Source of the DNA: Prorocentrum cordatum
Lineage: Eukaryota
NCBI GenBank assembly: GCA_963575745.1
Contig: CAUYUJ010000022.1
Span: forward strand, 62,001-119,463
Direction of reading: 5' to 3'
Length of the DNA stretch: 57,463 nt
Part shown: positions 23,340 to 24,017 of the stretch, one piece after another
Position numbering within the stretch: the stretch's first letter is position 1
Layout: each line of letters begins with the position of its first letter
The notes under the pieces: generated by a model
Database searches by the model: none
Told to the model about the DNA's origin: nothing
The model's input: the letters and a program-made list of their open reading frames with translations, nothing else
Made by a program: the position numbers and the translations under genes

Positions 23340-24017
23340 ATGCCGGCGGCGCTGGCGCCATCGGGGGCCGCAGCGGCAGCCCAGGAGCACGAGCGCGTGG
23401 TCCGACCGCGCCAGGTCGAGGGCGCCAGGCGCGCCGACGCACTGAAGGAGGTGAAGAACTGGCAGACGGGGCAGAAGCAGGTCTTCGGGATGATGATGCG
23501 CCAAACCCTCCGCAACACCCAGCAGATGCGCGAGGTGATGGCGGCCCTCTTCGACGTCTACCTCGCACCAGAGGATGCGCCGATCATCTTATCGATGCAG
23601 GAGCAGACGTCCACGCGCAGCACCGTGGTGAAGGGCAAGAAGGATCACGAGTACGGGCCGCCGCTGACCTGGGCGTTCGGGGGCGCCTTGAAGTGGATGC
23701 ACGACCAGGGCCCCGACGACCCCAACTCGGGGATCAAGATCAGCAAGAAGCTCCACGAACAAGTCAAGAAGGCGCACAACGAGTACAGCACATGGGACAC
23801 GCAGAAGAAATGCGACCTCATCCTGTGCTGCAAGGTGGAGAAGGTCTTCCAGAAGGGGATGAAGAAGGTGACAATCGCGCTCAGGGGCCCCACGTTCCGC
23901 CACATGATGTGCAGGTGTCTGGCGGGGATCAAGGGCATGCAGCTGAAACAGGGTCGGGCCCCCGCCACGTACATGGAGCGCGAGATTCAGCAGATGATTG
24001 AGCAGATGGACGCCTAG
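23340..24017 (+). CDS. Intact 225-aa protein of unknown function downstream of the LINE RT
   Basis: ATG 23340 to TAG 24017, very high GC3, complex globular-like sequence (..KKDHEYGPPLTWAFGG..CKVEKVF..KQGRAPATYMEREIQQMIEQM). Confidence 0.75.
   Translation: MPAALAPSGAAAAAQEHERVVRPRQVEGARRADALKEVKNWQTGQKQVFGMMMRQTLRNTQQMREVMAALFDVYLAPEDAPIILSMQEQTSTRSTVVKGKKDHEYGPPLTWAFGGALKWMHDQGPDDPNSGIKISKKLHEQVKKAHNEYSTWDTQKKCDLILCCKVEKVFQKGMKKVTIALRGPTFRHMMCRCLAGIKGMQLKQGRAPATYMEREIQQMIEQMDA

What the first reader, a model, noticed from the sequence alone, without database searches (positions are those of the whole stretch)
23340..24017. Intact uncharacterised ORF downstream of, and overlapping, a LINE RT-zinc-finger ORF
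Seen: a 225-aa GC3-rich ORF starts right after the third zinc finger, in the +1 frame relative to RT. The RT frame has no stop until 24001. About 780 bp of 3' sequence and an AT-rich tail follow. Its codon bias looks stronger than that of the RT region. Established: non-LTR elements normally place accessory ORF1 upstream of RT, and 3' ORFs are rare. Inference: a LINE lineage with a dedicated 3' accessory protein, translated by reinitiation or +1 frameshift, or a captured host gene. I do not recognise the fold.
Basis: partly seen in the sequence, partly recalled or inferred. Interest (0 to 1): 0.75.

Follow-up and report, generated by a model that had tools for sequence, protein, structure and literature searches.

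The report
Overlapping 3' gene in dinoflagellate LINE
A LINE-like jumping gene of dinoflagellates carries, after its reverse transcriptase and zinc fingers, a second well-conserved protein gene of unknown fold in a shifted reading frame, an accessory gene in an unusual place that my searches did not find described.

Summary
Window 23340-24017 (+) is an intact 225-aa ORF with GC3 0.91, against 0.46-0.61 in the RT frame. It starts 62 nt after the third C2H2 finger, in the +1 frame. It is a real gene: 272 clusters of relatives, and omega 0.057 between two diverged copies. It is linked to the RT/zinc-finger module in the window, in 3 of 4 metagenome loci, in 2 distant database proteins, and in 3 contigs of close copies. 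So it belongs to a multicopy LINE-like element and is not a neighbouring host gene.

The open RT frame across the ORF is not significant in the window (1 stop against 1.5 expected). It is significant in loci L002 and L003 (0 stops against 7.6-10.9 expected). There the RT frame continues into a conserved tail, so the region is truly dual-coding.

The model is confident (pLDDT 89 and 96): a basic tail, a long helix, then a ferredoxin/RRM-like domain. It has no significant Pfam or PDB match.

A stretch resembling the dinoflagellate spliced leader lies 63-97 nt before the ATG. The start codon and an 'MPATL' N-terminus are conserved. I therefore favour a separate, trans-spliced mRNA over frameshifting, but this is untested. 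The window copy is dead as an RT: it is 5'-truncated and has a TGA in motif E.

The parts
21344..22204 (+). Reverse-transcriptase core of a 5'-truncated LINE-like copy (motifs 1-2 at 21389-21472, A at 21638-21667, B at 21812-21850, C 'FADD' at 21959-21982, D at 22085-22114, E at 22193 onward)
   Evidence: Motifs read directly from the translation; motif definitions are recalled. The 90%-identical transcript peptide P0158 covers the same region. The nearest Atlas clusters carry RVT_1, score 0.97. No Pfam, NCBIfam, PADLOC or PDB sequence hit. Nothing RT-like lies upstream of 21344.
22205..22207 (+). In-frame TGA in RT motif E; a copy-specific nonsense mutation
   Evidence: Sequence read. Position 22205 is G (GGA, Gly) in all contigs laid there: X1 4 of 4, X5 2 of 2. 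P0158 has Gly at this position.
22208..22945 (+). RT C-terminal region between the palm motifs and the fingers
   Evidence: Same frame. Homologous to the L003 upstream frame: 26.8% identity over 339 aa including the fingers, E 2e-29.
22946..23278 (+). Three C2H2-type zinc fingers (22946-23029, 23075-23125, 23210-23278)
   Evidence: Read. Conserved upstream of the ORF in L001, L002 and L003 and in P0098 and P0025. Omega 0.108 for L002 against L003 over 60 codons. Pfam zf-C2H2 is only weak (E 0.59).
23225..23247 (+). Stretch resembling the dinoflagellate spliced leader, inside finger 3 (exact 10-mer at 23233-23242)
   Evidence: 10 of 10 in the window. At the homologous site, 17 of 20 in L002, 12 of 14 in L003, 9 of 9 in L001. 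It is the top-scoring site in L002 and L003 and ties for top in window 21000-25000. The spliced-leader sequence and the -50 to -100 position of relicts come from passages of PMC6050394.
23291..23339 (+). Pro-rich (RT frame), pyrimidine-rich linker with CAG at 23311-23313; candidate trans-splice acceptor
   Evidence: Sequence read. A pyrimidine tract plus CAG lies 5-44 nt before the ATG in 4 of 4 loci. Its function is inferred, not tested.
23340..24017 (+). The 225-aa accessory ORF (P0001): basic disordered N-terminus, long helix 27-70, alpha/beta domain 71-225; stop TAG at 24015-24017
   Evidence: family and conserved motifs; models with pLDDT 88.9 and 95.6; omega 0.057 in L002 against L003; pI 9.5.
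23339..24001 (+). RT-frame extension overlapping the ORF (low-complexity, rich in G, A, R, P, E and D), ending in TGA at 23999-24001
   Evidence: Its openness is not significant in the window. It is significant in L002 and L003, where the RT-frame amino acids are only 48% conserved against 82% in the ORF frame.
24018..24520 (+). Probable 3' untranslated region; the 3' boundary is not determined
   Evidence: Multicopy contig cover continues at low depth to about 24.4-24.5 kb. A different repeat takes over at 24518-24652 and beyond. No poly(A) or target-site duplication was identified.

Best explanation
The ORF is a genuine accessory gene of a multicopy LINE-like retroelement family of dinoflagellates. 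Gene order is RT, then three C2H2 fingers, then the ORF. The ORF lies in the +1 frame and is overlapped by a low-complexity extension of the RT frame. Shown: the ORF is real and under purifying selection, it is linked to the RT/finger module across diverged lineages, it has a confident and unmatched fold, and the region is truly dual-coding in at least one lineage. Inferred: the protein is made on its own from the conserved ATG, most likely from a shorter mRNA produced by spliced-leader trans-splicing at an acceptor between finger 3 and the ATG. The spliced-leader-like stretch upstream would be the scar of reverse transcription of such an mRNA, or of the original capture of a leader-tagged cellular cDNA. 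More weakly inferred: the basic protein (disordered tail, long helix, ferredoxin/RRM-like domain) binds nucleic acid and acts in the element's RNP, as ORF1p does in L1. The window copy itself cannot transpose on its own: it is 5'-truncated and has a TGA in the RT.
For: Real gene: 272 relatives at E<=1e-3 and 75 at E<=1e-10. There are 3 invariant and 11 near-invariant columns in 52 sequences. L002 against L003 in the ORF frame gives dN 0.118, dS 2.08, omega 0.057; the other two frames of the same bases give 2.6 and 1.4. Of the 12 best-supported differences listed inside the ORF among close copies, 8 fall on ORF third positions (my count, table 3).

Linkage: the window's RT C-terminus and fingers match the sequence directly upstream of the ORF in L003 (E 2e-29), L002 (5e-9) and L001 (4e-8). 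That is 3 of 4 loci; the fourth, L004, is truncated inside the ORF. They also match the N-termini of P0098 (7e-9) and P0025 (2e-4), 2 of 153 stored proteins. Contigs of close copies bridge fingers to ORF: X1 record 4 (22941-23669), X5 records 27 and 28.

Multicopy: 205 (X1) and 295 (X5) contigs lie on 20900-24900 at 80-99% identity.

Frame: the ORF is +1 to the RT frame in the window, L002 and L003.

Dual coding: L002 and L003 have 0 RT-frame stops over 230 and 227 ORF codons, against 7.6-10.9 expected (0 of 3000 shuffles each) and 8-13 stops in the third frame. A conserved tail follows in the RT frame.

Own start: 28 of 151 representatives begin MPx(1-3)L, and 44 of 151 begin M[PVA]x(1-3)L, ahead of a hypervariable region. 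The ATG context is similar in 4 loci.

Spliced-leader-like site: 63-97 nt upstream in 4 of 4 loci. This matches the -50 to -100 position of relicts described in PMC6050394.

Transcription: EukProt transcript peptides exist for both the RT (P0158) and the ORF (P0004, P0005).

Fold and charge.
Against: No RNA evidence for a separate mRNA. No run on record as RNA holds the stretch, and no leader junction was seen.

The spliced-leader-like stretch sits inside a selected zinc finger, which a simple relict does not explain. In the window it is only a 10-mer, and an equally good match exists elsewhere in the same 4 kb.

The same +1 offset in three lineages would also fit frameshifting.

The RT identity has no profile support: Pfam, NCBIfam, PADLOC and PDB all returned nothing.

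No full-length element was seen, so an upstream ORF1 and the endonuclease type are unknown.

The nucleic-acid-binding role rests on charge and on weak fold likeness: best Z 4.9, and L1 ORF1p Z 3.8 at rank 37.

L002 and L003 are related (75% nucleotide identity over the ORF), so they are not two fully independent tests of dual coding.
Confidence: 0.6

Rival explanations
1. Programmed +1 ribosomal frameshifting between finger 3 and the ORF makes an RT-finger-ORF fusion, so the ORF is effectively a C-terminal domain of ORF2.
For: The same +1 offset occurs in the window, L002 and L003. The two frames overlap with no RT-frame stop before the ORF. Database proteins P0098 and P0025 read from the fingers into the ORF domain in one frame.
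Against: The ATG and the 'MPATL'-type N-terminus are conserved although a fusion would not need them. In L002 and L003 the RT frame is kept open across the whole ORF and continues into a selected tail, so the zero-frame product is made. In P0098 finger 3 is cut short. In P0025 the stretch between finger and core does not resemble the N-terminus of its close relative P0008. Both look like copy-specific indels; this is my inference from the peptides only. No known shift site was recognised.
Confidence: 0.15
2. The ORF is simply the C-terminal domain of ORF2, and the frame offset in the window is a decay mutation.
For: The window copy is already dead: TGA in the RT and 5' truncation. In L001 the ATG is in frame with the fingers.
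Against: The offset is shared by three diverged lineages while the ORF stays under omega 0.057. L001 is itself decayed: it has a stop within the finger region and a second frame change before the core.
Confidence: 0.1
3. An unrelated host gene or retrogene that merely lies next to a LINE fragment in this window.
For: Its GC3 of 0.91 is unlike the RT. A spliced-leader-like stretch lies at retrogene distance. Most database relatives are stand-alone models of 170-300 aa.
Against: The adjacency to the fingers, down to tens of bases, recurs in 3 of 4 metagenome loci at 25-30% protein identity, in P0098 and P0025, and in 3 bridging contigs. The ORF is multicopy, with depth similar to the RT. Fragments of it sit inside chimeric gene models, as transposon pieces do.
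Confidence: 0.05
4. A chance ORF in GC-rich DNA.
For: GC-rich sequence yields long open frames. The overlapping RT frame here is open by composition alone.
Against: 272 relatives, omega 0.057, and a model with pLDDT 95.6.
Confidence: 0.01

Closest known systems
LINE-1 ORF1p (coiled coil + RRM + C-terminal domain; PDB 2yko, 2w7a)
   Same: Both are small, non-enzymatic, basic accessory proteins of a non-LTR retroelement. Both have a disordered N-terminus, then a long helix, then an alpha/beta domain of ferredoxin/RRM type.
   Different: The ORF is encoded 3' of, and overlapping, the RT gene instead of 5' of it. There is no sequence similarity. Structural likeness is weak: Z 3.8, rmsd 3.6 over 79 residues, at rank 37, below Cas6 and ACT domains. 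Oligomerisation is not shown.
SymbioLINE-Dnmt elements of Symbiodinium (PMC5890265; passages read)
   Same: These are dinoflagellate LINEs that have taken up an extra protein-coding module which stays under purifying selection and is transcribed.
   Different: There the extra module is a known enzyme (a DNMT) in an ORF upstream of the RT. Here it is an unknown fold downstream, in an overlapping frame.
Dinoflagellate retrogenes with relict DinoSL (PMC6050394; passages read)
   Same: A leader-like stretch lies 63-97 nt before the start codon, and the TTT(T)GG part is the best kept. This matches what is described for relicts at -50 to -100.
   Different: Here the stretch lies inside the coding sequence of a conserved zinc finger of another gene, and the 'retrogene' is part of the retroelement itself.
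Overlapping ORFs in retroelements, e.g. DIRS-1 ORF2/ORF3 (PMC5633606; one passage read)
   Same: Two reading frames of a retroelement overlap, and both are used.
   Different: DIRS-1 is a tyrosine-recombinase element whose overlapping ORFs encode known enzymes. Here a whole folded protein is nested in the +1 frame of a disordered extension of a LINE-type RT gene.

Membership tests
Non-LTR (LINE) retrotransposon | Reverse transcriptase with the non-LTR motif series, including (Y/F)ADD | tested here: inconclusive
   Motifs 1-2, A, B, C (FADD), D and E are readable at 21389-22216; motif definitions are recalled. Atlas nearest clusters carry RVT_1, 0.97. But there was no hit in Pfam (E up to 10), NCBIfam, PADLOC or PDB sequences.
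Non-LTR (LINE) retrotransposon | Many dispersed copies, commonly 5'-truncated | tested here: met
   205 (X1) and 295 (X5) contigs at 80-99% identity. The window copy starts at RT motif 1 with nothing RT-like upstream. The L004 copy is truncated inside the ORF.
Non-LTR (LINE) retrotransposon | Endonuclease (APE-type or restriction-like) in ORF2 | not testable with these tools
   No full-length copy was available. The window copy lacks everything upstream of the RT, and I read no restriction-like motif between the RT and the fingers.
Non-LTR (LINE) retrotransposon | Defined 3' end (poly(A) or simple repeat) with target-site duplication | tested here: inconclusive
   Cover by copies fades at about 24.4-24.5 kb, where another repeat begins. 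No tail or duplication was identified.
L1 ORF1p-type RNA chaperone | Coiled-coil oligomerisation domain followed by RRM and C-terminal domain | tested here: inconclusive
   Long helix 27-70, then a ferredoxin/RRM-like domain. 2yko scores Z 3.8 and 2w7a Z 3.6, both within the noise range the tool states.
Dinoflagellate retrogene | Relict DinoSL upstream of the start codon at 5'-UTR distance | tested here: inconclusive
   17 of 20 in L002 and 12 of 14 in L003 at -63; 9 of 9 in L001 at -64; 10 of 10 in the window at -97. In the window another 10-point match exists within 4 kb. The site is inside a coding zinc finger.
Overlapping (dual-coding) genes | Second frame open beyond what the first frame's codon usage predicts | tested here: met
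   This row is for L002 and L003 only: 0 stops against 9.8-10.9 and 7.6-9.7 expected, 0 of 3000 shuffles each. A selected tail follows in that frame.
Overlapping (dual-coding) genes | The same test in the window copy | tested here: not met
   1 stop against 1.4-1.5 expected, P 0.52-0.56. The tail of L002 and L003 was not found in the window.
Pfam PF01416 PseudoU_synth_1 | Score at or above the gathering cut-off | tested here: not met
   17.7 bits against a cut-off of 23.3, over residues 161-214 only. PUS1 is only a weak Foldseek row, E 0.13.

The most novel reading that the evidence does not exclude
An ancestral dinoflagellate LINE captured the cDNA of a spliced-leader-tagged cellular mRNA behind its RT. 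The RT gene then read through the leader scar (now part of a zinc finger), the former 5' UTR and the captured gene in another frame, creating a dual-coding region. The captured protein, a new fold, is now released from the element's transcript by internal spliced-leader trans-splicing and serves as the element's RNA-binding partner. That would be an ORF1p-like function placed at the 3' end and expressed by a route open only to trans-splicing organisms.
Probability: 0.25. Interest if true: 0.8.

Novelty: new variant of a known kind. Interest (0 to 1): 0.62.

Why it matters
LINEs are thought of as ORF1-ORF2 elements, and a folded, selected protein nested in the +1 frame behind the RT is an unusual architecture. 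If it is expressed by internal trans-splicing, that would show how dinoflagellate mRNA processing lets a retroelement be polycistronic. It also gives a name and a context to a large 'dark' protein family (at least 272 clusters at 50% identity) that appears in marine metagenomes and in dinoflagellate gene sets. There its fragments already contaminate host gene models (P0021, P0029). Finally, it offers a clean natural case of overprinting, with one structured and one disordered frame.

Tried and rejected
No whole genome is held for the window, and there is no second copy in the window.

A word-based search for longer fused forms of the ORF found none. The RT C-terminus search found only P0158.

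The long Trinity proteins P0144 and P0132 end in the ORF domain, but their N-terminal parts match neither Pfam nor the window RT. They remain unexplained.

The first metagenome scan (A3) found 188 pattern matches and no relative. Prokaryote genome contigs (130 pattern matches) and viral contigs (35) held no relative.

PDB sequence search found nothing significant for the ORF or the RT. NCBIfam and PADLOC found nothing. The Atlas gave no usable hit for the ORF.

Fold searches: Foldseek gave no row at E<=1e-3 for either model. VIA on the whole model matched only the long helix, best Z 7.8. VIA on the domain alone gave a best Z of 4.9.

Homodimer prediction gave no verdict.

No RNA holder was listed among sequencing runs. 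X5 is only guessed to be RNA.

The conserved tail of L002 and L003 was not found in the window, L001 or L004.

A full 21-nt spliced-leader search in the window with up to 3 mismatches gave 0 hits.

Earlier notes of this scan held nothing.

L004's two long ORFs have no Pfam hit above the curated cut-off.

Literature searches: none of the listed titles or abstracts describes a 3' ORF in a dinoflagellate LINE. I read passages of four papers only, so the absence from print is not established. I looked at no supplements.

Full report
**1. Observation**

Window 23340-24017 (+) is an intact 225-aa ORF, P0001. It begins 62 nt after the last histidine of the third C2H2 finger (23210-23278) and is +1 relative to the RT/finger frame. 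That frame runs on to a TGA at 23999-24001, 16 nt before the ORF's TAG.

Codon bias differs sharply. The ORF has GC3 0.91 and T3 0.03. Three RT-frame segments have GC3 0.53, 0.61 and 0.46.

- The open RT frame across the ORF is what the ORF's codon usage predicts. Shuffles that kept the protein or the codon set gave 1.4-1.5 stops against 1 observed, P 0.52-0.56.
- The AT-rich 'tail' belongs to a different repeat of far higher copy number.

**2. The upstream gene**

From 21344 the frame shows the non-LTR RT motif series up to motif E. This is read directly, and the motif definitions are recalled.
- A transcript-derived peptide, P0158, is 90% identical over the stretch aligned and carries the same RT motifs.
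- The Atlas places the region next to RVT_1 clusters, score 0.97.
- No profile or PDB sequence search hit an RT, so the RT call rests on motifs and that lead.
- Nothing RT-like precedes 21344. Upstream lie a proline-rich GC tract, a 100-N gap (20316-20415) and a 2-kb simple repeat. The copy is therefore 5'-truncated.
- It also carries a TGA at 22205-22207. This is GGA in every other copy laid there (X1 4 of 4 contigs, X5 2 of 2) and Gly in P0158. It is a nonsense mutation in motif E.

**3. Is the ORF a gene?**

An exhaustive phmmer search found 272 cluster representatives at E<=1e-3, 75 at E<=1e-10 and 3 at E<=1e-30. Most are stand-alone models of 170-300 aa.

Named members come only from Prorocentrum cordatum records (the nr label also names Polarella glacialis) and from one EukProt transcriptome set. 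The rest are ENA, Logan and JGI contigs of 0.7-2.5 kb.

A 52-sequence alignment shows conserved blocks: KQxL..Q..R, FD, Q..Y, GHxLGPPH, and K-x-G-R-A-P...M-E-R-E-L-Q.

Two diverged copies, L002 and L003, are 75% identical in nucleotides. In the ORF frame they give dN 0.118, dS 2.08 and omega 0.057. The other two frames of the same bases give 2.6 and 1.4.

**4. Linkage to the RT**

- The window's finger region matches the N-terminal extensions of P0098 (E 7e-9) and P0025 (2e-4), which is 2 of 153 stored proteins. P0035 is weak at 0.26.
- A second metagenome scan gave four loci. In L003, L002 and L001 the sequence directly upstream of the ORF is homologous to the window's RT C-terminus and fingers (E 2e-29, 5e-9, 4e-8). 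L004 holds only a 5'-truncated ORF remnant.
- Contigs of close copies bridge the junction: X1 record 4 (22941-23669), X5 records 27 and 28. In total 205 and 295 contigs lie on the element in two runs.
- No joint skipping the ORF was reported.
- Fragments of the ORF are embedded in chimeric host gene models, P0021 with adaptin and P0029 with a P4-ATPase, as expected of a transposon.

**5. Overlap**

In the window, L002 and L003 the ORF is +1 to the RT frame. In L002 and L003 (ORF GC3 0.64-0.65, T3 0.15-0.16) the RT frame has no stop over the whole ORF. The expectation is 7.6-10.9 stops, and 0 of 3000 shuffles reached zero in each test. The third frame has 8 and 13 stops.

Past the ORF's stop, the RT frame encodes a tail of about 85 aa that is conserved between the two loci (pN 0.22, pS 0.80).

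Over the overlap, the ORF frame is 82% identical in amino acids (187 of 227) and the RT frame 48% (108 of 226).

So the structured protein is the constrained frame, and the RT-frame stretch is a stop-free, disordered linker. This is genuine dual coding in that lineage. The tail was not found in the window or L001.

L001 is decayed. It has a stop in the finger region, its ATG is in the finger frame, and there is a further frame change before the core.

**6. Expression**

The start is conserved. 28 of 151 representatives begin MPx(1-3)L, and 44 of 151 begin M[PVA]x(1-3)L, although the next 40 or so residues are hypervariable. The ATG context is alike in four loci.

Inside finger 3, 63-97 nt before the ATG, all four loci carry a stretch resembling the dinoflagellate spliced leader: 17 of 20 in L002, 12 of 14 in L003, 9 of 9 in L001, and 10 of 10 in the window. 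Different halves of the leader are kept in different lineages.

Passages of PMC6050394 place conserved relicts 50-100 nt before start codons and single out the TTT(G) part as the best kept.

A pyrimidine tract plus CAG lies 5-44 nt before the ATG in 4 of 4 loci.

I infer a separate, trans-spliced mRNA, and a history that includes reverse transcription of such an mRNA. No RNA data were available to test this. How a leader scar can be part of a selected finger (omega 0.108) is unexplained.

**7. The protein**

AlphaFold2 with the family alignment gives pLDDT 88.9 for the whole protein and 95.6 for residues 71-225. The model has a disordered basic N-terminus, a 44-residue helix, and an alpha/beta domain.

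Foldseek found nothing at E<=1e-3. The wide structural search on the domain gave a best Z of 4.9 (Cas6), with RRM, ACT and NikR domains at 4.0-4.5 and L1 ORF1p at 3.8. This is a ferredoxin/RRM-like arrangement, within the tool's stated noise range.

The protein is basic. P0001 has pI 9.5. Family medians are 8.4 for the domain, 10.0 for the helix and 9.3 for the N-terminus.

A nucleic-acid-binding RNP role like that of ORF1p is my best guess, at roughly 30%.

**8. Comparison and novelty**

Dinoflagellate LINEs are known to carry extra modules, such as the DNMT in an upstream ORF (PMC5890265, passages). Retrogenes with leader relicts are common (PMC6050394). Overlapping ORFs exist in DIRS-1 (PMC5633606, one passage).

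My three literature searches listed no description of a folded 3' protein nested in the +1 frame of a LINE RT gene. I rate it a new variant of a known kind.

Noticed in passing
window 18300-20450: A simple (GTN)n-type array of about 2 kb, with strong GC skew, interrupted by a 100-N assembly gap at 20316-20415. It lies directly upstream of the truncated element.
   Followed up: no
window 24652-25541: An unrelated, very high-copy repeat, with word depth in the thousands in X1, X2 and X5 against tens for the element. In other copies it is preceded by (TGT)n. Internal direct repeats at 24968-25051 and 25217-25541 are about 92% identical.
   Followed up: partly
L002 874-1443 and L003 1691-1954: A conserved acidic tail of about 85 aa in the RT frame beyond the ORF stop (pN 0.22, pS 0.80). 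It has no Pfam hit and no counterpart in the window, L001 or L004.
   Followed up: partly
L004 2277-7152: A near-perfect relict spliced leader (14 of 15) at 2277, upstream of two long ORFs (2431-4527 and 4531-7152) with no Pfam hit above the curated cut-off. It may be the 5' part of another retroelement.
   Followed up: partly
proteins P0144, P0154, P0132: Trinity-derived ORFs of 652-1545 aa end in the ORF domain. Their long N-terminal parts have odd composition and match neither Pfam nor the window RT.
   Followed up: partly
proteins P0021, P0029: Prorocentrum cordatum gene models that fuse an adaptin or a P4-ATPase N-terminus to a fragment of the ORF family. They are likely annotation chimeras caused by intronic element copies.
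   Followed up: no
window 25800-26400: A long purine/pyrimidine low-complexity tract, reading as poly-E/R/G or poly-S/P/L depending on frame and strand.
   Followed up: no
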